The notes under the pieces: model-generated | Databases searched by the model: none | Told to the model about the DNA's origin: nothing | Seen by the model: the letters and a program-made list of their open reading frames with translations, nothing else | Translations under genes and position numbers: made by a program | In this document: piece by piece, positions 19,987 to 64,000 of the stretch | Position numbering within the stretch: the stretch's first letter is position 1 | Layout of the letters: each line of letters begins with the position of its first letter | Source of the DNA: an uncultured Alphaproteobacteria bacterium | GTDB lineage: Bacteria > Pseudomonadota > Alphaproteobacteria > ATCC43930 > CGMCC-115725 | Length of the DNA stretch: 64,000 nt | Assembly (NCBI GenBank): GCA_963796155.1 | Contig: CAWCKT010000055.1 | Location: forward strand, 20,442 to 84,441 | Reading direction: 5' to 3'

Positions 19987-21273
19987 ATGAAGCGTTCGGG
20001 TCTTCTCGCGGTCGCCGTCGCAGCGGTTTTATTGTTCTCGTTGCGCCAGGATGTCGGGGCGGCGACGGCCAATTCGGCTGACACCTACAAGCAGCTCGAT
20101 CTGTTCGGTGCAGTGTTCGAAAAGGTGCGTGCCGAATATGTCGACGACGTCAGCGACGATTTTCTGATCGAGTCCGCGATCAACGGCATGCTAACCTCGC
20201 TCGACCCGCACTCTAATTATCTGAACACGAAGAACTTCGACGACATGAAGGTGCAGACCCGTGGCGAGTTCGGCGGCCTGGGGATCGAAGTGTCGATGGA
20301 GAACGGCATCGTCAAAGTGGTCTCGCCGATCGACGATACTCCGGCTGCCCGCGCCGGGCTAAAACCCGGCGATCTGATCACCCATATCGACGGCGAGCCC
20401 GTCCAGGGGATGACCCTTCCCGAAGCGGTCGAGAAAATGCGTGGTCCGGTCAGCAGCGAGATAAAGCTGACGATCCGGCGCGAGGGGCGCGAACCCTTCG
20501 ACATCAAGCTGATCCGGGCGACGATAAAGATTCAGTCTGTCCGCTCGCATCTCGAAGGCGACAATATCGCCTATATCCGGATTACGACGTTCAACGAGCA
20601 GACCGATGTCGGCCTCAACAACGCGATGAAGAACCTCAAGCAGCAGGCCGGCAACAAGCTCCTCGGGGTGGTCCTCGACCTGCGCAACGATCCGGGCGGG
20701 CTGCTCGACCAGGCGGTCGCCGTCGCCGACGCGTTTCTCGACAAGGGCGAGATCGTATCGACCCGCGGCCGGCGCAGCGAGGACGCGCAGCGCTACGACG
20801 CCCGTCCGGGTGACATCGCCGCCGGCTTGCCGATGGTCGTGCTGATCAACGGCGGCTCGGCTTCGGCCAGCGAGATCGTCGCCGGCGCCCTGCAGGATCA
20901 CCACCGCGCGATCCTGCTCGGCACCCGATCGTTCGGCAAGGGATCGGTCCAGACGATCATCCCGCTGCCCGGCCACGGGGCAATGCGGCTCACCACCGCG
21001 CGCTATTACACGCCCTCGGGGCGGTCGATCCAGGCCAAGGGGATCGATCCGGACATCGTCGTCGAAGCCGCCAAGATCGAGAAACCTCCCGAGAAGGGCG
21101 AGGCCACCGTCGCTACGGCCTCGGATTTGAAGAGGGATGACTCCGGCGAGGGCGGTGCGGAGCAGAGCTCGGTCGATCCGTCGATCATCGGGACACCGGC
21201 GGACTACCAGTTGACGCGCGCGGCGGACATGCTGCGCGGCATCGCATTGTTTAACGGGCGCGTGGTAAACTAG
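19987..21273 (+). CDS. ctpA: Carboxy-terminal processing (S41) protease
   Basis: Signal peptide. PDZ region GLGIEVSMENGIVKVVSPIDDTPAARAGLKPGDLI. VLDLRNDPGGLLDQAV, NGGSASASEIVAGALQD, GTRSFGKGSVQT. Confidence 0.9.
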   Translation: MKRSGLLAVAVAAVLLFSLRQDVGAATANSADTYKQLDLFGAVFEKVRAEYVDDVSDDFLIESAINGMLTSLDPHSNYLNTKNFDDMKVQTRGEFGGLGIEVSMENGIVKVVSPIDDTPAARAGLKPGDLITHIDGEPVQGMTLPEAVEKMRGPVSSEIKLTIRREGREPFDIKLIRATIKIQSVRSHLEGDNIAYIRITTFNEQTDVGLNNAMKNLKQQAGNKLLGVVLDLRNDPGGLLDQAVAVADAFLDKGEIVSTRGRRSEDAQRYDARPGDIAAGLPMVVLINGGSASASEIVAGALQDHHRAILLGTRSFGKGSVQTIIPLPGHGAMRLTTARYYTPSGRSIQAKGIDPDIVVEAAKIEKPPEKGEATVATASDLKRDDSGEGGAEQSSVDPSIIGTPADYQLTRAADMLRGIALFNGRVVN

Positions 21274-28307: not shown

Positions 28308-31300
28308 TCAATCGGAAACTTCGGCGAGCGAGGCGGCGGCGCGCCGCTCGAAGGTGACGGCGCCCTGCCGGCGCGCAACCTCGCGGGCGGTTGCGAAGGC
28401 GCGCCGGGCCCCGGCCTTGTTGCCGCGATCCTGCGCCAGCAGGCATTCGCCGCGCAGGCGCCAAATTTCGGCCAGATAATAGCCGACATCCGGCTCCTCG
28501 TTGGCGCCGAGCGCGCGATCGAGCATCGCCGCGGCGCGGTCGTGCCCGCCGGCGGCCAGCATCAGTTCGCCGGCGATACCGAGGAGATATTGCACGTTGG
28601 GCCCCGCGGCAGCCGCCTGTGCTATTTCCTCGACCAGCTCGGCGCTCGCCGCCAGTCCCGCGCCGCCCGCCCAGACCAGCAGCAGCCCCGCGCCGGCCCG
28701 GTAGGGCGGAAACCCGTATTTGTCGGCAATGGCGATCGTGCGCTCCGCCGTCTGCCCGGTCAGGTCGCCATTACCGGCCATCTGATGGGCCATTGCCGCG
28801 TTATAGAGGGCGTGGACGAGGCTGAACGGGTGATCGAGCGCGTCGCCGAGCGCGATCGAGTATTCCGCCTCGCGCCGGACCAGCTCGAGGTCGTCCGAAA
28901 GCGCGGCCATCAAGCCGAGGATCGCGTGCGCGCAAACGCCAGGATCATGGCCGCCATAAGCCGGGCCCAGATGCCGATGCCGCGCCATATCGTACGTCTC
29001 GACGCCGATGCGACCGAAATCCCGGGCGACCGCGATGTCGCCGCGGAAAAACGCGGTCGACCAGCGGCAATGATAGGCTTCGAGCAGAAGATCGCCGTCA
29101 CCCGAGCGCTGCGCCAGCGCCACGAGCTGGTCAGCCTGATCGCGGGCAACGGCCGTCTTGCGGGCAAGATTGGCGTTGAGCCACAGTCCCCATTTCGCCT
29201 TGTAGGCGGCGGCGCCGTCCTGCACATCGTCACCCAACTCGGCGGCGCGGCGATAGGTTGCCTCGACCTCCGCGCTTTGCGCCCCGGCGACGATCGTCTG
29301 CGCCGGCCCGAGCTTCAGCAGCAACGCCAATTGCCGGCGCCGGCGCGCGCCCGGGTCGGCCAGCCGCTCGGCCTCGTTCAGGCCTGCCGAAAAATGCCCG
29401 ATCGCTTCGTGATAGGCCGAGCGGGCGGCGGCGCGATCCCCCGCCCGCTCGCGGTAGTCGCAAGCGGGCGCCGTGAGGCCCGCCTCGCCGTAGTGGTGGG
29501 CCAGCAATTCCGGCTCGTTCGCCGCCGTTTCGGGAAACTTCTCTTCGAGTGCGCGACCGATGCGGGCGTGCCAGTCGCGCCGTCGCGCCAAGAGCAGGCT
29601 TTCATAAGCCGCGTCGCGCACGAGTGCGTGCTTGAAACTGAAACCGCGTTCCAGGCCGCGGCCTTCAGGAAAGACGATCCCGGCCGCGCCGAGCTTGGCG
29701 AGCGCGGCATCAAGTTCGGCCTCGGGTCTGCGGGCAACCGCGGCAAGCAGCGCAAACGCGAACTGCCGGCCGATAACGGCCGCGATCTGCGCCACCTCCC
29801 GCGCCTCGCCGAGTCGGTCCAGCCGGGCCATCAGCGAATCCTTCAGCGTCGCCGGCACCGCCGCGGCGTCCTCGCCCGCGGTCTCCATAACGCTCTTCGT
29901 CAATTCCTCGACAAACAGCGGCACGCCATCGCTCTTGGCGGCGATCGCGGCGACGGTTTCTGCCGGCAGCCCGCGCGACGCGGCAACTCCTGCGACCAAT
30001 TGCGCGCATTCCGCGCGGCCGAGCCGGCCCAGTGTCAGCATTGTCGCATGCGGCCGCGCCAGCCATGGCGGGGCAAAATCCGGCCGCGCGGTCACCGCCG
30101 CGAGCAGGCGGGCGGGGCCGATGCTGTCGATCAACTGTGTCAGCAATTCGAGCGTCGTGGCATCGATCCACTGAGCGTCTTCGAGGACCAGGAGTACCGG
30201 GTCGGTTTTGCCGAGCCGGGCGATCTCGTCGACCAGCAAGGCAATTGTCGCCGCCTTGCGCTGCGCCGGCGTCAGTGCCGAGGGGATCGCCGGAGCCCCG
30301 GGGATCGACAGCAGCTCCGCCAGTAACGGAACGGCGGTCGCATCCACCGCCGCGCGCTGCGCAAACAATGTGCCGAGCTTCTCGATGCGCACGGCAGGCG
30401 CGTCGGCGGCGGCAAAGCGCGCGGCGCGCGCCAGATGATGGATCACCGGGTAGAGCGCGCTGTCGCTGTGATAGGGCGAGCATTGCAGGTGGATGCGGGT
30501 ATGCAGCTCGTCCGCGAGAGCTTCCTGTAACTCCTCGATCGCCCGCGATTTGCCGATCCCGGCCTCGCCGATCACAGTGACGACCTGCCCCTCGCCCGAT
30601 CGCGCCAGACGCCAGCGGTCAAGCAGCAAGCCCATTTCGTTAGCGCGGCCGATCAGCGGCAGCGCGCCGCCGGTGCGGATCGCGGCGAAGCGGCTGGCAA
30701 CGGACGCCTCGCCCACCACCCGCCAGGCCGGCACCGGGCGCGCGAACCCCTTCATTTCCTGCGCGCCGATCGGTTCGAGTTGAAAGATGCCGCCGAGCAG
30801 ACGCTGCGTCGCTTCGCTGACCAGAATGGTGTCGGGCGCCGCGAGCGCTTGCAGCCGCGCTGCGAGATTGGGGGTTTCGCCGATGATGCTGTGCTCGCGC
30901 GCCGCACCAGCGCCGAAGATCTCGCCGACGACGACGAGACCCGTGGCGATGCCGACCCGCGCTTGCAGCGGCTTGCCGTCGGCGCTGGCGATGCCCCCGA
31001 TGTCCGTCAGGATGCCGAGCGCGGCGCGAACGGCCCGCTCCGCGGCATCCTCGAAAGCCTGCGGAAAGCCGAAATAGGCCAGCACGCCGTCGCCCAGGAA
31101 CTTGGCGACAAAGCCGCCAAAGCGGCCGATCGCGCCAGCTGCGGCGTCCTGGTAGTGCCGGATCAGCGGCCCCAGCAGCTCGGGATCGACCGCGCTCGAC
31201 AGTGCTGTCGAACCGACCAGATCGCAGAACAGCACCGTGACCTGCCGTCGCTCGGCCTCGGCCGCGCCCGCCGGTGCAACGCTATCGGCGGGGGTCGGCG

Positions 31301-31508
31301 CAAGATTGGACGTCGTCCGGGTGGAGTCTACCGTGCGCTCGGCGATCGCTCTGAGCAGCCGCCGCCGATTGCCGAGCGAGACGCCGAGCTCTGCCAGATC
31401 CTGTTCTGTCAGCTCGGGCAGAATGTCGAGATCGACGTCGTTTGCCGCGAACGCGTCCGCGTATTGCTCGCAGTTGTTCGCACGCAGCCAGGCGCGAAGA
31501 TCGCTCAT
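28308..31508 (-). CDS. 1066-aa multidomain protein: SAM-like N-terminus, class III adenylate/guanylate cyclase, P-loop STAND-type NTPase (AAA_16-like), TPR-like helical repeats
   Basis: LRAWLRANNCEQYADAFAANDVDLDILPELTEQDLAELGVSLGNRRRLLRAI (SAM-like). ERRQVTVLFCDLVGSTAL...FLGDGVLAYFG...GETPNLAARL (cyclase). VVTVIGEAGIGKSR (Walker A). A long Ala/Leu-rich repeat region runs to the C-terminus. Confidence 0.85.
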   Translation of the reverse strand: MSDLRAWLRANNCEQYADAFAANDVDLDILPELTEQDLAELGVSLGNRRRLLRAIAERTVDSTRTTSNLAPTPADSVAPAGAAEAERRQVTVLFCDLVGSTALSSAVDPELLGPLIRHYQDAAAGAIGRFGGFVAKFLGDGVLAYFGFPQAFEDAAERAVRAALGILTDIGGIASADGKPLQARVGIATGLVVVGEIFGAGAAREHSIIGETPNLAARLQALAAPDTILVSEATQRLLGGIFQLEPIGAQEMKGFARPVPAWRVVGEASVASRFAAIRTGGALPLIGRANEMGLLLDRWRLARSGEGQVVTVIGEAGIGKSRAIEELQEALADELHTRIHLQCSPYHSDSALYPVIHHLARAARFAAADAPAVRIEKLGTLFAQRAAVDATAVPLLAELLSIPGAPAIPSALTPAQRKAATIALLVDEIARLGKTDPVLLVLEDAQWIDATTLELLTQLIDSIGPARLLAAVTARPDFAPPWLARPHATMLTLGRLGRAECAQLVAGVAASRGLPAETVAAIAAKSDGVPLFVEELTKSVMETAGEDAAAVPATLKDSLMARLDRLGEAREVAQIAAVIGRQFAFALLAAVARRPEAELDAALAKLGAAGIVFPEGRGLERGFSFKHALVRDAAYESLLLARRRDWHARIGRALEEKFPETAANEPELLAHHYGEAGLTAPACDYRERAGDRAAARSAYHEAIGHFSAGLNEAERLADPGARRRRQLALLLKLGPAQTIVAGAQSAEVEATYRRAAELGDDVQDGAAAYKAKWGLWLNANLARKTAVARDQADQLVALAQRSGDGDLLLEAYHCRWSTAFFRGDIAVARDFGRIGVETYDMARHRHLGPAYGGHDPGVCAHAILGLMAALSDDLELVRREAEYSIALGDALDHPFSLVHALYNAAMAHQMAGNGDLTGQTAERTIAIADKYGFPPYRAGAGLLLVWAGGAGLAASAELVEEIAQAAAAGPNVQYLLGIAGELMLAAGGHDRAAAMLDRALGANEEPDVGYYLAEIWRLRGECLLAQDRGNKAGARRAFATAREVARRQGAVTFERRAAASLAEVSD

Positions 31509-45388: not shown

Positions 45389-46138
45389 ATGCGCGTGCTT
45401 CTAGTCGAGGATGATGCAGCAACCGCCGCCGGCATCAAGATGATGCTGGGGAAAGAGAATTTCATATGCGATACCACCGATCTCGGCGAGGACGGCCTGG
45501 AGATCGGCAAGCTCTACGATTACGATATCATTCTCCTCGATCTGATGCTTCCCGACATCGACGGCTACGAGGTGCTGCGCCGCTTGCGCGCGGCGCGCGT
45601 GCGCACGCCGATCCTGATCCTCTCGGGCCTCGCCGAGCTCGACCACAAGATCAAGGGTCTCGGTTTCGGCGCCGACGATTTTCTTACCAAGCCCTTCGAT
45701 CGCCGGGAACTGGTCGCGCGCATACAGGCGATCGTGCGCCGTTCCAAGGGCCACTCTAAATCGATGATCCGCACCGGCAAGCTTATCGTCAATCTGGACA
45801 CCCGCATTGTCTCGGTCGATGACCAGCCGGTGCATCTAACCGGCAAGGAGTACGGCATCCTGGAGTTGTTGAGCCTACGCAAGGGCACGACCCTGACGAA
45901 GGAAATGTTTCTTAATCACCTCTATGGGGGCATGGACGAGCCCGAGCTCAAGATCATCGATGTCTTCGTTTGCAAGCTGCGCAAGAAGCTCGCCCAGGCG
46001 ACCGGCGGCAAGCACTACATCGAAACGGTTTGGGGCCGCGGCTATGTGCTGCGTGACCCGGTAGAGACAACGGCCACGCTAGCACCCGGAGCCAGCCAGG
46101 CGAATACCGGCGCGCGAGCCGGTTCGGCAGCAGCTTAG
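45389..46138 (+). CDS. ctrA: Cell-cycle response regulator CtrA
   Basis: [108 protein letters not shown]. Confidence 0.95.
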
Positions 46139-56564: not shown

Positions 56565-56963
56565 ATGACCGATCGTGATGCCGTGCTGGCCGCCAATCTC
56601 GAATTCTACCGCGCGTTCACTGCGCGGGATATCGCCGCCATGGACGCGCTGTGGGCACGGCGAACGCCGGTTGCCTGCATTCACCCGGGATGGACCCCCC
56701 TCGGGGACCGGAACGCGATCATCGAGAGCTGGGAGGGGATTCTGTCGAACCCGGATGCCCCACGCATTGCCTGCGTCGACGAACAAGTGATCCTTTACGG
56801 CGATGTCGCCCTGGTGCTGTGCGAGGAAGAACTCGACGGCGGCACGCTGGCCGCGAGCAACCTGTTCGTCCGCGAGGACGATGAGTGGCGCATCGCCCAT
56901 CATCAGGCGGGTCAGATCGTCCGCCGGCGCGCGGAGCCGCGGCGCCCGACGCGGCTGAATTGA
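56565..56963 (+). CDS. SnoaL-like/NTF2-fold (DUF4440-like) protein
   Basis: Trimmed to ATG 56565. ANLEFYRAFTARDIAAMDALWA...ACIHPGW...NLFVREDDEWRIAHHQ. Confidence 0.7.
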   Translation: MTDRDAVLAANLEFYRAFTARDIAAMDALWARRTPVACIHPGWTPLGDRNAIIESWEGILSNPDAPRIACVDEQVILYGDVALVLCEEELDGGTLAASNLFVREDDEWRIAHHQAGQIVRRRAEPRRPTRLN

Positions 56964-57012: not shown

Positions 57013-57258
57013 TCAGCGCTGCCGTGCCCCGTCGTAGGCGATGCGCACTTCAGCCAAGCGCTGTGCGGTGTCCGCATCGAGCCGGCCATCCCAGCGCTCG
57101 GGACGAAAGCGCCGCTGGAAGGCGGTGACGGCTGCGGTCTCAGAGCCTACGGTGACGCAATAACCGATGGCGGTGAGATCGGCGAGCGCCGCGGCGCGCT
57201 CGACCATCCCGATGCCTTGCCCGCGGCCGCGGCCGATCGCCGGCTCCGGCCAGATCCC
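57013..57258 (-). pseudogene. C-terminal ~80 codons of an AmpD-like N-acetylmuramoyl-L-alanine amidase; 5' part missing at the 57.26-kb junction
   Basis: GIWPEPAIGRGRGQGIGMVERAAALADLTAIGYCV...AVTAFQRRFRPERWDGRLDADTAQRLAEV resembles the C-terminal tail of alphaproteobacterial AmpD-type amidases. There is no catalytic domain upstream. Confidence 0.55.
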
Positions 57259-57276
57259 CGGTGAAGGAGGGGCAAC

Positions 57277-58481
57277 GTGAAGGCGCTCGTGTTCCGGCAC
57301 AACCTCGCCCGCGAGGCGGCCTCGGCCATCGGCGGCCGCGTCGACCAGCGCGCCTTCGTCTCCCGCTTCGCGCCCGTCCGCATCGAGGACGTCGACGAAC
57401 TGCCCGCTTCCGGCGCCGGACTGGGTGCGGGTCGAGACGACCTTCTCGGGCCTGTGCGGCTCGGACGTGAAGCAGATCCTGCTGAACGGCGTCCCGCGAC
57501 AACCCGCTCACCGCGCTGGTGTCCTTCCCGCACGTGCTCGGGCACGAGGTGGTCGGGCGCCGCGCGGACACCGGCGAGCGCGTGGTGCTCAACCCGTGGC
57601 TGTCCTGCGTGCCCGCGCGGCATCGACCCGCCGTGCGCGGCCTGCCAGGCCGGCCGCTACCCGTGGTGCCGCAACTTCCGCTCGGGCGACCTGCCCGTCT
57701 CGATCCACCTCGGGAACTGCGCGGCGGCCGCCGGCGCGCACGCCGAGCGGTTCGCCGCGCACGTCTCGCAGCTGTTCGCCATCCCGGACGGGGTGTCCGA
57801 CGAGGCGGCCGTGCTGGCCGACCCGGTCAGCGTCTCGCTGCGCTCGATCCTGCTCGCGCCGCCGCGCTGACGGCCAGCCCGTCCTGGTCTACGGCTCGGG
57901 CACGCTCGCGTTCGCGGCGATCGCGCTGCTGCGCCACCTGTACCCGGCCACCGAGGTGTGGGCGGCGACGCGACCCGGCGCCCGGGCCGCGCTCGCGACC
58001 CGCCTGGGCGCGCACGCCGTGCTGTCCTCCTCGCCCGACGAGCTTGTCGCGCAGGTGGCGCGCCGCGTCGGCGCGACGCCGCTGCGAGCCGTGGAGCAAG
58101 CGCGACTGGCTGCAGGACGGCCCGGCCGTCGTCTACGACACGATCGGCTCGACCGAGACCGTCGAGACCTCGCTCCGGCTGCTCACGACCGGCGGCACGC
58201 TCGTGATCTCCGGCGTCGAGCCGCCGAAGCGCTTCGAGTGGACTCCGCTGTACTTCAAGGAGCTGCACGTCATCGGCTCGAACGGCTTCGGCATCGAGGA
58301 GGTGGGCGGCGTCGCCAAGCACGCCATGGAGCACTACTTCGACTTCGTCCCCGCCGGCCTCGACCTGACGCCGGTCATCACCCACCGCTTCCCGCTCGAG
58401 CGGTGGGACGAGGCGGTGCTGGCGGTGAAGGACTCGCGGCGCACCGGCGCGGTCAAGGTCCTGCTCGAGCCCGCGCGCTGA
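57277..58481 (+). pseudogene. Zn-dependent alcohol dehydrogenase (MDR family) readable only across five frame changes
   Basis: GAAGGAGG SD + GTG 57277. VETTFSGLCGSDVKQ (frame 2), FPHVLGHEVVG (frame 3), CPRGIDPPCAACQAGRYPWC (frame 1), VLVYGSGTLAFAAIALL (frame 2), VVYDTIGSTE...VITHRFPLERWDEAV (frame 3). Switches lie near 57405, 57493, 57610, 57868 and 58088. Confidence 0.75.
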
Positions 58482-58813
58482 GGCGTGACCGCTAGACCAT
58501 GGCCGGTACCTGCGATGTGGCCGGTACCTGCGATGCGGCCCATCTGGGGCCGATGCGCTTGACGGAGGTTCGAATCGGGGCGGGCAGCGTCGGGCTGAGC
58601 GGCAGCGGGCGATTGGCCACCAACTGGCCCGCAAGATGGCTTATTGTGGTCCGCAACGGCAGCCACGCCTGCCTGTTCCAGAAGCCGGAGCCTGCCCACG
58701 CCTGGCGCGGCGACGAGGACAAGGGTCCTGGGGACTCGCGTGCGATCTGCTCTTTCCTTGTCAGGATGTCTAGCAGGCAGGGGGCGTGGGGAACCTGCTT
58801 GGAGTGACGTCCC

Positions 58814-59585
58814 ATGACTCAAAACAAGGATCGCAAGGCGCAAATCCGGGCTCGAATGGCCGAGACCGGCGAACCGTACACTGAGGCGGCCCGTCGGCTC
58901 GCGCGCAGCGCAGCTGACCCAAGTAGTCCTGGTGCGCTGGGCTGCGCTCGCCCCAGGCAGGGTCCGCCGCCAGCCTAAGATGTTCTGTGGATTAACGGCC
59001 CCTCCGGAGGCGGCAAGACCACGACGGCCTATGAGCTGAACCGGCGGCTGCCGGGCAGTGTGGTGTGCGACCCGGAGCATGTCGGCTACGGCATGCACCA
59101 CATGTTGCCAGCTGCGCTGCGGAGCAACTGGTGGGACCTGCCGGCCCTGAGGCACAGCATCGTGGAGCTACTGCGCCTGACGCTGGCCGCCTGGGACGGC
59201 CCGGTGATCGTCCCGATGACGCTCGTGAACTCCGGCTACTTCCAGGAGGTCGTTGGCAGCCTGCGGGGCGATGGCTTGGCGGTGCACCACTTCGCCCTGC
59301 TAGCAGAGCCAGTGACGGTGCGGCGGCGGTTGGGCCGACGCAGCCTCGGAACGGAGCTCAAGCCGGGAAGCTGGGCGGTCGAGCACCTCAGCGAGCACCT
59401 CCAGCAGCTTCGCGCACCGAGTTCGCCCAGCACATCCACACGGACCAGCAGACCGTAGCGCAGGTAGCAACGCCGTCGCCAGCTCGGCAGGCCTGGCGAT
59501 CACGCCGTCCACCGACGGCCCGCTGCGAGCCTCGCTACGCCGGTATGCGACAAGCATCCGCCATATCCGGCCACCGATGTGGTGA
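58814..59585 (+). pseudogene. P-loop ATPase (TmrB/AAA_33-like) with an N-terminal MTQNKDRKAQIRARMAETGEPYTEAARRL module; in-frame TAA plus two frameshifts
   Basis: In-frame TAA at 58976-58978, then LWINGPSGGGKTTTAYEL. Frame changes near 59419 and 59475 are needed to read ...FAQHIHTDQQTVAQVA... and ...LAITPSTDGPLRASLRRYATSIRHI. Confidence 0.55.
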
Positions 59586-59811
59586 CCGCAGACGGCGCAT
59601 TGGCAGCCGGGGAAGGTAGCTCCGCGCAGCTTCGGCTGTGTGCCCTGGACCGTGAGGGATCTGCGGCGGCGATTTGGCCGAGTCGGCTGATGCCAGGCGC
59701 TGAGATGCCTTTCCGCTTGGACCAAGTGGCCGCCCCTGCGAAGGCTGCCTGCTGGAGCCCTTCTCAAGGATCCATGAAAGAAGCGTCGAAGCACCCCGGC
59801 CAGCAGCACGG

Positions 59812-60213
59812 CTACAAACAAACCGGCCAATGGCACGGCGATCGCACCAACAACGAGCTTCCTCCACCCACCATCACCAATGCTGCGGTAAACGCCATGC
59901 TCACGCCTGTGCCCGCGGCGGTCCCGCGTTGAATCACCTTCCTGTTATGTGATTCCCGGGCGGCCTCCGAGGGTTGGGTTTCTATCGGCCCGGCAGGGAT
60001 ATCAGCGGTGAGGGCGTCCAGTTCCGCATAGGTGGCGAGCGCTTGGCCGACCCGCTGGTCAAACTCGTCCTTGGTCAGCCGTCCTTGCACGAACGCGGCC
60101 TTGAGCGCGTCGAGCACCTGCCCGCGGTCGGCCCGCGACGCGATCAGGTGGCTGTCGCCTCTCACGCCTGCTGCTATCTCGTCTCCGGGCTCGACCACCT
60201 CGGTGCCTCCCAT
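59812..60213 (-). CDS. DUF1707-domain protein (actinobacterial type)
   Basis: ASRADRGQVLDALKAAFVQGRLTKDEFDQRVGQALATYAELDALTADIP. The C-terminal hydrophobic tail may continue in another frame (ORF 59300-59836), implying another frameshift. Confidence 0.7.
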   Translation of the reverse strand: MGGTEVVEPGDEIAAGVRGDSHLIASRADRGQVLDALKAAFVQGRLTKDEFDQRVGQALATYAELDALTADIPAGPIETQPSEAARESHNRKVIQRGTAAGTGVSMAFTAALVMVGGGSSLLVRSPCHWPVCL

Positions 60214-60393
60214 GAGTGCAACTTACACAAAGCGTAGCGCCTGGCCGCTCGGTTAGGCCCCGCTTGTCACCAACTCGCGGACCGTCTCGGCACCGCGCTG
60301 CGCATGCTCCGAGCCGGACCGTCCGAAGCGTCGTAGGCCAGGAGCATCCACCCGGTGTGCGTGACGACTGAGCTGTGTGGATCGGGCGAGCCT

Positions 60394-60470
60394 ACCTGCG
60401 GGTGGGGTGTCCGCGAGTGACCGTGACAGACCCTTCGTTACCGGGATTAATGGCACGCTAATGGCACGAC
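60394..60470 (+). repeat. 77-bp direct repeat, copy 1 (partner 62913-62989), ending in tandem TAATGGCACG decamers
   Basis: Hand alignment gives ~8 mismatches in 77. Decamers lie at 60448-60457 and 60459-60468. Confidence 0.8.
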
Positions 60471-60647
60471 ACCACGCCGAGGCTGGGCCGTCGGCGATCC
60501 GGGAAGCAGACTTGGCCGATTGTTGGCGCGGGCCTGATCCTGGTATCGACTAAGACTTTTCCGCAGAACCGCGGCTTTCCCTCCGCAGTCACAACCGCGC
60601 ATGCCGCACTACTCAGCGGCACGGCCAAGATCCAGTCGGGCCAAGTG

Positions 60648-61482
60648 CTATTCCTCACGCAGGGATGAAGGGAATCGGGGAGGATGTCGGGTTCGGCGCG
60701 TGCGTGATGGAGCTGCGGCGGCCACCCCCGCCAGGACGAGCACCCCGCCAGCGATGCTGGCCAGGGTCAGGTGCTCACCAAGGAAGGCGACCGCGCCGGC
60801 CACGCTGACCACGGGCTCGAGGTAGAGCAGCTTGCTGACGCGGGTGGTGCCGCCGGATAGCACGGCGCGGTTCCACAGCAGCATCCCGGCAACCGTGCTG
60901 CCGAGCGCCAGGAAGGCCAGTTCGCTCCACACCGCCGTCGACAGGTGCGACAGCCTCAGTACGGACAGCGTCCCGGCGAAGGCCAGGTAGGGGACAGCTC
61001 CCACGACGGTCGAGGCGGCCGTGGCCGGAACCGCTCCGAGTTCTTGGCTGAGCGGCCGCAGCACGATGGTGTACGCGCGAACGCCAGCGTACCGGCCAGC
61101 ACCAGCCCGGCCCCGGCGAGCACCCGGGTCCCGCCCGCGCCAGCCACCGGCCGGCCCGGCCAGCACGGTAACGCCGCCCAGGGCGACGGCACTGCCCAGC
61201 CAGGCCCTGGCGCCCGCGCGCTCGTGGAGGAACACTTTCGCCAGGATCATGACCCAGATGGGCTCGGTCGCCAGCAGCATCCCGGCCGTGGCCGCGGGCA
61301 GCCACTGCAGCCCTGCGGTGACCGGAAAGTTGTAACCGATCAGCCCAAGGGCGCCGGCGGCCAGCAGCCGGCCCAGGGAACGAGCCGCAGCCGCCGGAAG
61401 CCGGCATGGCCCAGGGCAGCAGCACCAGCGCGGCCACGGTCAGCCGGCGTGTCTGGCCGGGAGCAGGGCTGGAGCTGTTCAT
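60648..61482 (-). pseudogene. DMT/EamA-family transporter with at least two frameshifts
   Basis: C-terminal half LLATEPIWVMILAKVFLHERA...AYTIVLRPL...STVAGMLLWNRAV...YLEPVVSVAGAVAFLGEHLT. The N-terminal half is readable only by switching between the frames of ORFs 60775-61497 and 61340-61522. Confidence 0.6.
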
Positions 61483-61511
61483 GCACGCGACCATCATGCT
61501 GTAATGGCCTT

Positions 61512-62046
61512 ATGCAGTTCAATACTTACACATATGCCGGCGCGCACATCGCCGCGTGGCTGGTCAACCACCCCTCGCCCAGCGCGCCGGTCCTCGCCGA
61601 AACGTTGCACCACTACGACGTCCATGAACCGGCGGTATCCACCAGCCAGGTGCGAATACTGCTGCCCTGGGCGCACCGGCTGGGCGCCATCTTCGAAGCC
61701 GGCACCGTGGCCGAGAAAGCACAGCGCGCCGACGAACTGCTAGTCGCCGCTGACTGCCGCCCCCGGCTGGTCAGCCATGGCCTGGACCTGCCGTACCACT
61801 TTCACTACGCACCCGTTCGGACCGGCCTAGCTGCCCGGGTGAAAGCCCTCACCGCAGCCGGGCTGGCGCACGTGATCGACGACGGAGCCGGATCCCGCCT
61901 GCGGGCTTGCAGCCGTGCTGGATGCGGCACCGTTTTCATCGACACCTCGCGCAATGGGCGCCGCCACTATCTGCAGTGTCCGGTGCGCCAACCAGGTCAA
62001 CGTAGCCAACCACCGGCACCGCAAGCGCCTGGCACCGGCCCGCTAA
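61512..62046 (+). pseudogene. ABATE/CGNR zinc-finger protein with a frameshift near 61970
   Basis: LRACSRAGCGTVFIDTSRNGRRHY, then after a 1-nt shift CSVRCANQVNVANHRHRKR (CGNR-type motif) and a stop at 62044-62046. Confidence 0.65.
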
Positions 62047-62131
62047 CCTCCTGGCCGCGCATCATCGCTGCCGTAGGAGATAGATGACAGCTGCGTGGTA
62101 CGCCGTAGTACGGAAGAATATGCTTTTGGGT

Positions 62132-62418
62132 ATGACATCCCCAAGTGGGCGGCCGACTGATATCAGCGTCCGCCAGTTCGTGGCGGACTCCGGGGCCGTC
62201 ACGCGCGGTCTGCGGCAGGGGCGCGTGTACACACTGACGCTTAACGGCGAGCCGCTGGCGAGGATGATTCCGATCCGTCAGCGCCGGGCGGTTCCCAAGA
62301 CGAAGTCCTCGCGATCTTCGCTACGGCACCAGTGGTCAACGGGGACGAACTGCGTGCCGACCTGGACGAGGCCGTCAGCCAGGATCTACGCGACCCATAT
62401 GAAGGGACAGGCCTGTGA
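62132..62418 (+). pseudogene. Phd/YefM-type antitoxin (VapB position) with a frameshift near 62290-62298
   Basis: ISVRQFVADSGAVTRGLRQGRVYTLTLNGEPLARMIPI, then in another frame QDEVLAIFATAPVVNGDELRADLDEAVSQDLRDPYEGTGL*. The stop overlaps the vapC GTG (GTGA). Confidence 0.5.
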
Positions 62419-62837
62419 CGGCGCACGCCGCCGCCGTCGTAGAAACCAGCATCATCGCCGCGCTGAAGATCTACGATCCGTCCGAGCTACCCGACACGAT
62501 CTTGATTACGGCAGTAACGCTGGGCGAGTTGTCTTTCGGTCCGCACGCGACCGACGATCCGATCAAGCGGGCCGGGCGCGTGGCTGTGCTGCAGCATGTG
62601 GAGGCGACCTTCGATCCGCTTCCGTACGATCAGGGCGCGGCCAGGCTCTATGGCCAGATCTGTGCCGCGGTTCGCGCGGTGGGACGGGAGCCGCGCAGGC
62701 GGGCCTCGGGCTTGATGATCGCAGCGACGGCAGCCAGTAACCAGCTCCCGCTCTACACGGCCAACCCAGACGACTTCAAGGGCACTGAAGGCCTTGTCGA
62801 GGTGGTCGGCATCCAAGCCCGGCCGAACAATCTCTGA
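62415..62837 (+). CDS. vapC: PIN-domain toxin VapC
   Basis: 140 aa. ITAVTLGELSFG, LPYDQGAARLYGQI, LMIAATAASNQLPLYTANPDDF. Confidence 0.85.
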   Translation: MTAHAAAVVETSIIAALKIYDPSELPDTILITAVTLGELSFGPHATDDPIKRAGRVAVLQHVEATFDPLPYDQGAARLYGQICAAVRAVGREPRRRASGLMIAATAASNQLPLYTANPDDFKGTEGLVEVVGIQARPNNL

Positions 62838-62841
62838 GTAG

Positions 62842-62882
62842 AGCGGGTGACAGGAATCGAACCCGCACTATCAGCTTGGGAA
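62842..62882 (-). pseudogene. 3' fragment (anticodon loop to discriminator) of a tRNA-Gly(CCC)-like gene
   Basis: Reverse complement TTCCCAA-GCTGA-TAGT-GCGGG-TTCGATT-CCTGT-CACCCGC-T. The upstream 30 nt cannot form the acceptor, D or anticodon-stem partners (GCGGGTG needed, GCCGCAC found). Confidence 0.6.
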
Positions 62883-62912
62883 TCTGTGCTATCCGGGCTG
62901 TTGTGCGGCCTG

Positions 62913-62989
62913 ACCTGCGGTGCGGGGTGTCCGCGAGTAACCGTGAGAGACCCTTCGTCACCGGGGTTAATGGCACGCTAATGGCACGG
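62913..62989 (+). repeat. 77-bp direct repeat, copy 2, ~30 nt from the tRNA-Gly fragment
   Basis: See 60394-60470. Decamers TAATGGCACG lie at 62968-62977 and 62979-62988. Confidence 0.8.
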
Positions 62990-63028
62990 CGAACCGTGGT
63001 CCGACCCCGGCTGACCAGCGTGACCTAA

Positions 63029-63958
63029 GTGGCCATGGCTAATGCCTTGTCGATCATGATTCGCGTCGACCGCCCATGTGGGTACGCCAGACATTTTCTA
63101 TGCTCTGTAGGGATTTACGGCGCGGCCCTACGGAGAGATGATGCTTTGAGGCATCCCCAAGACAAAGCCCAGCTGAGTGGGAGGGAGCAGCGGACAATGG
63201 CCCATACGAGCCGATGCAGTGGGGCTAGGACGGATCGCTGTAACTGCTGTTGCTGCGGTCTTTTACACGGCGGCGGCCTAGGCTTCGGGCTGTCTTGGGC
63301 TAGTGCCCAAAGCACGAGCCTGGTTGGTTCGCCTGTCCGCATGGGTACGTCTCGGCGGGTATCCGGCAGACGCCGGACCACTATGGACAGCGCAATCGAC
63401 GAGATAAAGGACTGGCTGACCGGTGTGGCGGCAGACCTACCGACCACCAGTACTGCTGCCACGAGCCAGGCAATAGACGCTATAAGTGGCGCGGTCGCGA
63501 GCGCTATTGTCAATACGCTTAACCGAAATGGATACCGCTGGTCCCATGCTGATCATGTCCTGTGTGAATTCCTTGCCGCTACAGCGTGCGCGATGCAGAA
63601 GTTTCGGGATCAGTTCCAGCGCTACGTGGAGTATGTGGTTTCGGTGATCCTTGCCTCCCGTCGTGGGCAAAAGCGCCGAGTTATTCCTGAGCCGGTTGTA
63701 CATATGGCAGCCCAAGCGGCCGTGAACGCGCTTACGAAACTCTCACCTGCCCGTGAATTCGACGACCTGTTGAGAGCGATGCGAATCCTGGCGATCGCCA
63801 CGTGCCCGGCTCCAGAACACCATAAGGCTGTTGCCAACTGCTGCCTGAAGCCGATGGAGACATTCGTCTTGTCTAGCGTGACGAAGCAGGAACTGACACG
63901 GGCATTGCCGCGTGGATGGATGGGCTCTGACCCTCGGTCCACTACTTCATCGGGCTGA
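63029..63958 (+). CDS. Hypothetical protein; start uncertain (ATG candidates 63197, 63341, 63383)
   Basis: Long ORF with visibly lower GC than its neighbours and non-repetitive composition from MDSAIDEIKDWLTG onward. No family recognised. Confidence 0.4.
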   Translation: MAMANALSIMIRVDRPCGYARHFLCSVGIYGAALRRDDALRHPQDKAQLSGREQRTMAHTSRCSGARTDRCNCCCCGLLHGGGLGFGLSWASAQSTSLVGSPVRMGTSRRVSGRRRTTMDSAIDEIKDWLTGVAADLPTTSTAATSQAIDAISGAVASAIVNTLNRNGYRWSHADHVLCEFLAATACAMQKFRDQFQRYVEYVVSVILASRRGQKRRVIPEPVVHMAAQAAVNALTKLSPAREFDDLLRAMRILAIATCPAPEHHKAVANCCLKPMETFVLSSVTKQELTRALPRGWMGSDPRSTTSSG

Positions 63959-64000
63959 ACATGGCGGGCGCGACCTTCTGATCCGTAGTCACCCGTACCG

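What the first reader, a model, noticed from the sequence alone, without database searches (positions are those of the whole stretch)
57013..57300. Abrupt phylum-level discontinuity at ~57.26 kb: a truncated alphaproteobacterial gene abuts an actinobacterial-type gene with its own SD
To the left, the last ~80 codons of an AmpD-like amidase (minus strand) end without a catalytic domain at ~57258. Within 20 nt, GAAGGAGG-N6-GTG starts an MDR alcohol dehydrogenase. From here on, the genes are of types characteristic of Actinobacteria (DUF1707, CGNR/ABATE, VapBC, MTQNKDRK...ARMAETGEPYTEAARRL leaders). Left of the junction are CtrA/ChpT-bearing alphaproteobacterial genes. Local GC jumps: by hand count, 47 of 60 nt at 57301-57360 versus 38 of 60 at 20041-20100 (single lines, indicative only). 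This is either a chimeric contig (mis-join of two organisms) or a cross-phylum insertion that disrupted the amidase gene.
Basis: partly seen in the sequence, partly recalled or inferred. Interest (0 to 1): 0.7.

Follow-up and report, generated by a model that had tools for sequence, protein, structure and literature searches.

The report
Chimeric contig joining two soil bacteria
The abrupt switch from alphaproteobacterial to actinobacterial DNA at 57.26 kb is really in the sequence, but it is almost certainly an assembly or binning artefact that stuck error-rich DNA of one soil bacterium onto clean DNA of another, not a natural gene transfer.

Summary
Homology to alphaproteobacterial relatives (97-99.5% nt) stops at exactly window 57258 in every one of 7 independent contigs that extend past that point. 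In all 7 the amidase is intact (244 aa) and is followed by TerB/DnaJ and MFS genes. Homology to 81 Streptosporangiaceae/Trebonia-type actinobacterial loci begins at 57256-57258, 19 nt upstream of the dehydrogenase start. The join is blunt, with 3 nt (CCC) of overlap.

There is no tRNA, integrase, transposase or flanking repeat, and the host sequence does not resume within the window.

Sequence quality also changes at the join:
- The 10.6 kb to the left has no private 1-nt indels and 9 of 9 genes are intact.
- The dehydrogenase to the right has five window-private 1-nt insertions in 1.2 kb.
- VapB, the CGNR gene and EamA are also frameshifted.

Close relatives of both halves occur in the same consecutively numbered ENA series of metagenome assemblies (ERZ250395xx). 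These are probably Nanopore/metaFlye assemblies.

Verdict: this is a non-biological join, either a chimeric read or mis-join, or an end-to-end concatenation of two contigs. A genuine cross-phylum insertion is not excluded without reads but is unlikely (about 4%). Interest is low.

The parts
56565..56963 (+). SnoaL_3/DUF4440 gene, the last intact alphaproteobacterial gene before the join
   Evidence: Pfam SnoaL_3 E 6e-24. The identical 132-aa protein is on 14 public contigs.
57013..57258 (-). 3' fragment (81 codons plus stop) of an AmpD-like N-acetylmuramoyl-L-alanine amidase; the catalytic Amidase_2 part is missing
   Evidence: BLASTP aligns it to residues 162-244 of the 244-aa amidase of L004, 81/83 identical. 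Pfam gives only a sub-threshold PG_binding_1 match. The intact gene is present in 7 related contigs.
57233..57234 (.). Site of a window-private 6-nt deletion (CGAGGT), 25 nt left of the join
   Evidence: Alignment A1. It is the only private indel of the window in 10.6 kb.
57256..57258 (.). Breakpoint: the 3-nt CCC shared by both parental sequences
   Evidence: Alphaproteobacterial alignments all end at 57258. Actinobacterial alignments most often start at 57256/57257.
57263..57270 (+). Shine-Dalgarno GAAGGAGG of the dehydrogenase, native to the actinobacterial locus
   Evidence: Sequence. The same GAAGGAGG is conserved upstream of the gene in most aligned Streptosporangiaceae loci.
57277..58481 (+). 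Zn-dependent MDR dehydrogenase (threonine-dehydrogenase-like) broken by five window-private 1-nt insertions at about 57403, 57491, 57611, 57864 and 58084
   Evidence: It appears as three overlapping ORFs in three frames. The stitched protein is 90-92% identical over 100% of its length to 399-aa proteins. The insertions are absent from 14 of 14 relatives. A frame HMM finds the same five switches.
58500..58535 (.). Perfect 18-nt tandem duplication just after the dehydrogenase stop
   Evidence: the repeat finder family D17.
58806..59458 (+). MTQNKDRK... leader ORF followed, after a stop, by a P-loop kinase-like ORF (VLWINGPSGGGKTT). Possibly one gene interrupted; no family match; coordinates approximate.
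   Evidence: Frame translations and ORF list. Pfam found nothing for 59060-59458.
59812..60213 (-). DUF1707 (SHOCT-like) protein gene
   Evidence: Pfam PF08044, E 1.1e-14.
60390..60670 (.). Copy 1 of a short repeated element that is also multi-copy in Streptosporangiaceae MAG loci
   Evidence: 65-nt direct repeat with 62924-62988. 95-97% matches to L020 and several matches per locus in L063. No Rfam match.
60648..61560 (-). EamA-family transporter gene spread over more than one frame (at least 2 frameshifts inferred)
   Evidence: Pfam EamA E 2.5e-19 on one ORF only. Overlapping same-strand ORFs 60648-61280 and 60775-61497. Frame translations.
61500..62060 (+). CGNR zinc-finger (ABATE-type) gene with a frameshift near 61970; coordinates approximate
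   Evidence: zf-CGNR matches only model positions 1-25 of 44. The remainder, CSVRCANQVNVANHRHRKR, is in the +1 frame.
62084..62417 (+). VapB-type antitoxin gene with a frameshift near 62300
   Evidence: tblastn of relatives' ORFs: residues 40-103 in frame 3, residues 101-140 in frame 2.
62415..62837 (+). VapC PIN-domain toxin gene, intact
   Evidence: Pfam PIN. 83-90% identical over 140 aa to ORFs in L021 and L024.
62838..63003 (.). Copy 2 of the short repeated element

Best explanation
The junction at 57256-57258 is not biological. Clean consensus sequence of an alphaproteobacterium (1-57258) has been joined end-to-end to a lower-quality stretch of chromosomal DNA from a Streptosporangiaceae-type actinobacterium (57259-64000). 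Relatives of both organisms occur in the same series of soil metagenome assemblies.

The most likely mechanism (inferred) is as follows. A chimeric long read, meaning two unrelated fragments ligated during library preparation or not split by the basecaller, or an equivalent mis-join, let the assembler extend the alphaproteobacterial contig into actinobacterial sequence. That appended stretch was polished from few or mixed-strain reads, so it retains 1-nt insertion errors.

A less likely variant of the same artefact is that two separate contigs of a contaminated bin were concatenated without a spacer when the record or window was made.

Shown: the position and bluntness of the join, the taxonomic origin of both sides, the absence of the join from all relatives, and the jump in indel rate.

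Inferred: that the cause was a chimeric read or mis-join, and that the source is a Nanopore/metaFlye assembly.
For: 1. Seven distinct contigs from ENA, JGI and Logan assemblies extend past the breakpoint, and every alignment to the window stops at exactly 57258. In all of them the amidase is intact (244 aa) and is followed by TerB/DnaJ and MFS genes. The closest, L004, is 99.5% identical over 10.7 kb.

2. All 81 actinobacterial loci align from 57252-57278 onward, most often from 57256/57257, at about 91% nt identity. The two homologies overlap by only CCC. The sequences upstream of the dehydrogenase in actinobacteria bear no resemblance to the alphaproteobacterial side, so no repeat explains the join.

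3. Sequence quality differs on the two sides.
   - Left: the window has zero private 1-nt indels in 10.6 kb. Nine of 9 genes have the same length as in L004. CtrA, two RND permeases and a 1066-aa cyclase each give a single uninterrupted family match; the CtrA and RND matches cover the whole model.
   - Right: there are five private 1-nt insertions in the 1.2-kb dehydrogenase (14 of 14 relatives lack them), plus frameshifts in VapB, CGNR and EamA.
   - The insertion bias matches the private-indel profile of poorer contigs of the same ENA series: L005 has 17 insertions and 4 deletions, L003 has 11 insertions and 1 deletion.

4. The insert is absent from a strain 99.5% identical to the window, so it would be too young to have accumulated five frameshifts by decay.

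5. The window's dehydrogenase has 0 singleton substitutions, whereas each of 14 relatives has 3-21. This is expected for a consensus of mixed reads.

6. There is no tRNA, no flanking direct or inverted repeats and no integrase or transposase domain. The missing amidase 5' part, TerB/DnaJ and MFS genes do not reappear in 57259-64000.

7. The right side keeps native actinobacterial order and orientation. Its downstream pieces also lie downstream of the same dehydrogenase in L020 and L024.

8. The best dehydrogenase hit is on ERZ25039548, and the left-side relatives are on ERZ25039506/587/605, the same assembly series. Many actinobacterial relatives are MFD long-read MAGs made with Nanopore, metaFlye and one round of Medaka (PMC12313526).

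9. Tetranucleotide composition of the right side is 3.9-5.0 SD from the left. It is closer to the actinobacterial pool (0.159) than to the true alphaproteobacterial downstream sequence (0.296).
Against: - No reads, coverage data or assembly graph are available, so the artefact is not demonstrated directly.
- The window's own contig could not be retrieved. It is therefore unknown whether the contig ends near 64000 or continues as actinobacterial or alphaproteobacterial DNA.
- There is no adapter sequence at the join, which argues against an unsplit in-silico chimeric read but not against a ligation chimera.
- Cross-mapping of abundant actinobacterial reads during polishing could in principle degrade the consensus of a genuinely transferred segment, which would weaken the error-rate argument.
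- Absence from seven relatives does not exclude a strain-private event.
Confidence: 0.9

Rival explanations
1. Variant of the artefact: no assembler ever joined the two pieces. The window was cut from a multi-contig record (a contaminated metagenome bin) whose contigs were concatenated without spacers. One contig ends at 57258 and a short, low-coverage actinobacterial contig begins at 57259. This probability is counted inside the 0.9 given to the non-biological reading above.
For: - The join is perfectly blunt, has no adapter and falls at arbitrary points in both parents (mid-gene on the left, 19 nt upstream of a start on the right).
- The private 6-nt deletion 25 nt from the end would fit a poorly polished contig end.
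- The poor quality of the right side fits a separate low-coverage contig.
- At least two MAGs of the same kind of project carry phylum labels that disagree with their gene content, so binning or labelling problems do exist.
Against: Nothing in the sequence marks a contig boundary (no N run). The source record could not be found, so this cannot be distinguished from a chimeric contig with these tools.
Confidence: 0.25
2. Real and very recent cross-phylum transfer: at least 6.7 kb of Streptosporangiaceae chromosomal DNA integrated by illegitimate recombination into the amidase gene of one alphaproteobacterial strain.
For: - The junction exists in the sequence as given.
- Both organisms live in the same soils, so there is opportunity for transfer.
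- The dehydrogenase arrives with its own SD and start codon.
Against: - The junction is absent from all seven relatives that cover the site, including one at 99.5% identity.
- There is no second junction, integrase, transposase, tRNA or repeat.
- The segment is ordinary chromosomal DNA in native order, not a mobile element.
- The right side carries at least 8 frameshifts while the adjacent 10.6 kb of host sequence has none. One genome sequenced at one depth should not show this.
- An insert younger than 0.5% divergence cannot have acquired five frameshifts, all insertions, in one 1.2-kb gene by decay.
Confidence: 0.04
3. Old horizontally acquired island that has since decayed into pseudogenes in the alphaproteobacterial lineage.
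For: Multiple frameshifts in the right-hand genes.
Against: - The stitched dehydrogenase is still 90-92% identical in protein to actinobacterial orthologues over 100% of its length, the same range as those orthologues show to one another (P0001 vs the loci: mostly 79-92%).
- It has zero private substitutions.
- All five of its indels are insertions.
- Tetranucleotide composition is un-ameliorated.
- Strains 97-99.5% identical to the window lack the island.
Confidence: 0.01

Closest known systems
Inter-genome chimeric contigs or chimeric reads in long-read (Nanopore/metaFlye) metagenome assemblies
   Same: - Blunt switch between two co-occurring organisms at an arbitrary position.
- A gene truncated with no remainder nearby.
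- The junction is absent from all related genomes.
- Consensus quality changes at the junction.
- Relatives of both halves come from a Nanopore + Flye + Medaka project (PMC12313526).
   Different: Read-level proof (a single spanning read, a step in depth) is not available here. No adapter remnant is present at the join.
Bin contamination or chimerism of metagenome-assembled genomes, as flagged by tools such as GUNC (Orakov et al. 2021, cited in PMC12313526)
   Same: Genes of two phyla appear in one record, and taxonomic affiliation switches in blocks rather than gene by gene.
   Different: Contamination normally lies between contigs. Here the switch is inside one continuous 64-kb stretch, so it is either a chimeric contig or an unmarked concatenation.
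Genomic islands and cross-phylum horizontal transfer
   Same: A compositionally distinct block with foreign best hits interrupts a host gene, and toxin-antitoxin genes are present.
   Different: There is no integrase, transposase, tRNA, direct repeats or second boundary. The content is ordinary chromosomal DNA in the donor's native order. The sequence quality differs from that of the host flank.

Membership tests
Chimeric (non-biological) join in a metagenome assembly | Abrupt switch of taxonomic affiliation at a single point | tested here: met
   Alphaproteobacterial homology ends at 57258. Actinobacterial homology starts at 57256-57258. The left side has a CtrA equivalog. The right side matches Streptosporangiaceae-type MAGs.
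Chimeric (non-biological) join in a metagenome assembly | The junction is absent from independent assemblies of the same or closely related organisms | tested here: met
   Seven distinct contigs cover the site and all continue with the intact amidase. All 81 actinobacterial loci have different sequence upstream of the join. The junction 50-mer is absent from genome contigs and metagenome contigs.
Chimeric (non-biological) join in a metagenome assembly | Discontinuity of coverage or consensus quality at the junction | tested here: met
   Tested by proxy only, through the indel rate. There are 0 private 1-nt indels in the 10.6 kb to the left and 5 in the 1.2 kb to the right, plus frameshifts in VapB, CGNR and EamA. 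True read depth was not available.
Chimeric (non-biological) join in a metagenome assembly | Few or no genuine reads span the junction | not testable with these tools
   No reads are available and the source contig was not retrievable.
Genomic island / horizontally acquired insertion | Two boundaries, with host sequence resuming beyond the insert | tested here: not met
   No alignment of 57259-64000 to the downstream parts of L003, L004 or L005. This could not be tested beyond 64000.
Genomic island / horizontally acquired insertion | Mobility hallmarks: integrase or transposase, tRNA target, flanking direct or inverted repeats | tested here: not met
   No tRNA. No flanking repeats at 57258. 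No recombinase domain among the right-hand ORFs.
Genomic island / horizontally acquired insertion | Same sequencing quality as the host flank (one molecule, one depth) | tested here: not met
AmpD-like N-acetylmuramoyl-L-alanine amidase (Pfam Amidase_2), for the fragment 57013-57258 | Amidase_2 catalytic domain | tested here: not met
   The window keeps only residues 162-244 of the 244-aa protein. No Amidase_2 match. NCBIfam finds nothing. The intact relatives do carry PF01510.
Zn-dependent medium-chain dehydrogenase/reductase (ADH_N + ADH_zinc_N), for 57277-58481 | Continuous reading frame encoding both domains | tested here: not met
   The window gene is split over three frames, and only ADH_zinc_N is detected, in one ORF. 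After the five insertions are removed it matches 399-aa proteins that carry PF08240, PF00107 and PF13602 at 90-92% identity.

The most novel reading that the evidence does not exclude
One alphaproteobacterial soil strain has very recently integrated at least 6.7 kb of Streptosporangiaceae chromosomal DNA (dehydrogenase, DUF1707, EamA, CGNR, VapBC) into its amidase gene, by illegitimate recombination and without any mobile element. Under this reading, the frameshifts are polishing artefacts caused by cross-mapping of reads from abundant actinobacteria.
Probability: 0.04. Interest if true: 0.6.

Novelty: not a real feature. Interest (0 to 1): 0.07.

Why it matters
The value is in quality control rather than biology. 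If the join were taken at face value, this record would suggest cross-phylum transfer, loss of a cell-wall-recycling amidase, and actinobacterial toxin-antitoxin and regulator genes in an alphaproteobacterium. All of these would be false.

The case also shows a cheap, read-free way to recognise such joins:
- An exact common end-point of the alignments to several relatives.
- A step in the rate of private indels or frameshifts at the same point.

If the rare alternative were true, it would be an unusually clean example of mobile-element-free DNA transfer between phyla in soil.

Tried and rejected
- Retrieving the window's own contig. A 50-nt junction-spanning pattern was absent from genome contigs and metagenome contigs. 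Exact-protein look-ups all returned nothing: DUF1707, VapC, two versions of the amidase fragment, the window's MoaA variant and a 428-aa left-hand ORF. Contig length and what lies beyond 64000 therefore remain unknown.
- Confirming the ENA accessions in the supplement of PMC12313526. No supplementary text is held, so the link of ERZ250395xx to the Microflora Danica long-read project is an inference from contig naming and MAG titles.
- GC content as evidence. It is too weak on its own, so tetranucleotide distance was used instead.
- A GC3 frame HMM over the whole window. It recovers the five dehydrogenase frame switches but calls much of the lower-GC left side non-coding, so it was not used to compare frameshift rates.
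- A repeat-mediated mis-join. Rejected because the two parents share only CCC at the breakpoint.
- A mobile element or island. Rejected on the absence of tRNA, repeats and recombinase.
- Rfam on 56.5-64 kb. No match.

Full report
**What is in the sequence.**
- On the minus strand, an ORF at 57013-57300 ends a run of alphaproteobacterial genes.
- On the plus strand, GAAGGAGG (57263-57270) is followed after 6 nt by GTG at 57277.
- From there, three overlapping ORFs in three different frames (57277-57870, 57425-58495, 57519-58481) together carry dehydrogenase-like sequence.
- On the left, Pfam finds GST, SnoaL_3, a trypsin/PDZ protease, a GerE regulator, a hybrid histidine kinase and others.
- The amidase ORF gives only a sub-threshold PG_binding_1 match and no Amidase_2 domain.

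**Locating the left boundary.**
- Exact-protein look-ups of the GST and SnoaL genes returned 12 loci from 11 distinct public contigs in ENA, JGI and Logan assemblies.
- blastn of the window against them gives 97.0-99.5% identity.
- For all seven distinct contigs that extend past the site (L001 and L005 are the same contig; L003, L004, L006, L007, L009, L010), the alignment stops at exactly window 57258.
- In each of these contigs the amidase is a complete 244-aa Amidase_2 protein, followed by a TerB/DnaJ gene and an MFS transporter.
- The window ORF aligns only to residues 162-244 of that protein (81/83 identical, 2-aa gap). So 81 C-terminal codons remain and the catalytic part is gone.
- No part of the missing downstream sequence reappears in 57259-64000.
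- The left side is alphaproteobacterial. The response regulator at 45389-46138 scores 415.6 bits against the CtrA equivalog (cut-off 350). A ChpT-type phosphotransferase lies next to it. Named amidase homologues are from Alphaproteobacteria MAGs.

**Locating the right boundary.**
- Stitching the three frames gives a 397-aa protein. It matches about 399-aa Zn-dependent dehydrogenases at 90-92% identity over 100% of its length. One named hit is from a Streptosporangiaceae MAG.
- A scan of species-representative genomes returned 80 loci. Of these, 78 are titled Streptosporangiaceae, Trebonia, Streptosporangiales, Acidimicrobiales, Actinobacteria, Actinomycetes or Actinomycetota. Many are "MFD...bin" MAGs with contig_N names.
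- All 81 actinobacterial loci align to the window starting between 57252 and 57278, most often at 57256/57257, at about 91% nt identity.
- The alignment of the junction shows that the SD and the 19 nt before the GTG are the native actinobacterial upstream sequence. Further upstream, the actinobacterial loci share nothing with the window.
- The two homologies therefore abut with only CCC (57256-57258) in common.
- Pieces further right recur downstream of the same dehydrogenase, in the same orientation, in other MAGs: 60394-60668 in L020 at 95-97% and VapBC 62087-62882 in L024 at 91%. The whole right-hand 6.7 kb is thus ordinary actinobacterial chromosome in native order.

**Composition.**
- GC is only slightly higher on the right.
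- Tetranucleotide distance of the two right-hand 3.4-kb windows from the left-hand profile is 0.284 and 0.311. The 16 left windows give 0.188 ± 0.025, so z = 3.9 and 5.0.
- The right side is closer to the pooled actinobacterial loci (0.159) than to the true alphaproteobacterial downstream sequence (0.296). The reverse holds for the last 6.7 kb of the left side.

**Sequence quality changes at the join.**
- A four-way alignment of window 46.6-57.26 kb with L003, L004 and L005 shows no private 1-nt indel in the window. There is one private 6-nt deletion at 57233, 25 nt from the join, and 11 private substitutions.
- All nine genes in that stretch have the same length as in L004, with 0-2 aa differences.
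- Farther left, CtrA, two RND permeases and a 1066-aa cyclase each give a single uninterrupted family match; the CtrA and RND matches span the whole model.
- To the right, the dehydrogenase carries five 1-nt insertions (about 57403, 57491, 57611, 57864, 58084) that 14 of 14 relatives lack. A GC3 frame HMM finds the same five switches.
- VapB changes frame near 62300. The CGNR finger is split near 61970, and the EamA gene runs through several frames.
- The insertion bias is the same as in the poorer contigs of the same ENA series: L005 has 17 insertions against 4 deletions, and L003 has 11 against 1.
- The window's dehydrogenase has no singleton substitution, while each of the 14 relatives has 3-21. 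This is what a consensus of mixed or sparse reads would give.
- A strain 99.5% identical to the window lacks the right-hand DNA. A real insert would therefore be too young to have acquired five frameshifts in one gene by decay. They are errors.

**No biological integration signature.** There is no tRNA in 50-64 kb, no direct or inverted repeats flanking 57258, no integrase or transposase domain, and no Rfam match.

**Provenance.**
- The best dehydrogenase hit lies on ENA ERZ25039548 contig_5353. The left-side relatives lie on ERZ25039506, ERZ25039587 and ERZ25039605.
- The contig naming and the MFD MAG titles point to the Microflora Danica long-read study, which used Nanopore reads, Flye --meta --nano-hq and one round of Medaka (PMC12313526).
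- This link is an inference, because the accession list was not readable.
- The window's own contig could not be found.

**Interpretation.**
- The join is best explained as non-biological (confidence about 0.9). Either a chimeric read or mis-join extended an alphaproteobacterial contig into poorly supported actinobacterial sequence, or two contigs of a contaminated bin were concatenated without a spacer.
- The blunt junction with 3 nt of overlap rules out a repeat-mediated mis-join. The lack of adapter sequence fits a ligation chimera better than an unsplit read.
- A real, strain-private cross-phylum insertion cannot be excluded without reads. It is disfavoured by the quality step, the absence of any mobility feature or second boundary, and its absence from all relatives (about 4%).
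- An old, decayed island is effectively excluded.

**Verdict.** The feature is an artefact and is of interest only for quality control.

Noticed in passing
window 60390-60670 and 62838-63003 (core 65-nt repeat 60404-60468 / 62924-62988): A short repeated element in the actinobacterial part. It is also present in several copies per locus in Streptosporangiaceae MAG loci: L063 at about 11.9, 13.1 and 15.2 kb, plus L020, L016 and L024. It has no Rfam match. It could be a small intergenic mobile repeat or a conserved leader.
   Followed up: partly
window 57277-58481: The window's dehydrogenase differs by 8-9% nt from every relative yet has 0 singleton substitutions, against 3-21 in each of 14 relatives. 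It looks like a consensus of several co-occurring strains rather than one genome.
   Followed up: partly
window 58500-58535: A perfect 18-nt tandem duplication (TGGCCGGTACCTGCGATG x2) directly after the dehydrogenase stop codon. It may be real or a consensus artefact.
   Followed up: no
window 58806-59458: A small ORF starting MTQNKDRKAQIRARMAETGEPYTEAARRL is followed, after a stop, by a P-loop kinase-like ORF (VLWINGPSGGGKTTTAYEL) with no Pfam match. It could be one gene interrupted by an error, or a leader plus a separate gene.
   Followed up: no
L039 (CAVUQA010000002.1, MFD06092.bin.2.148) and L071 (CAWIPA010000016.1, MFD01633.bin.1.196): Two species-representative MAGs titled 'uncultured Acidobacteriota' carry the Streptosporangiaceae-type dehydrogenase at 86% identity. 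88% of the L039 locus aligns to other actinobacterial loci. This suggests a labelling or binning problem in those records.
   Followed up: partly
L001/L005 (ERZ25039506 contig_11290) and L003 (ERZ25039587 contig_41414): These public contigs of the same alphaproteobacterial population carry many private 1-nt insertions (17 and 11 in 10.7 kb) and split genes (MoaA, FdhD, NAD kinase, histidine kinase). Frameshifted gene calls from this assembly series should be treated with caution.
   Followed up: partly
window 28308-31508 (-): A 1066-aa protein matches the TOMM system kinase/cyclase fusion model over model positions 276-1267 (554 bits, below the 706-bit cut-off). It is a large adenylate-cyclase-type signalling protein in the alphaproteobacterial part.
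   Followed up: no
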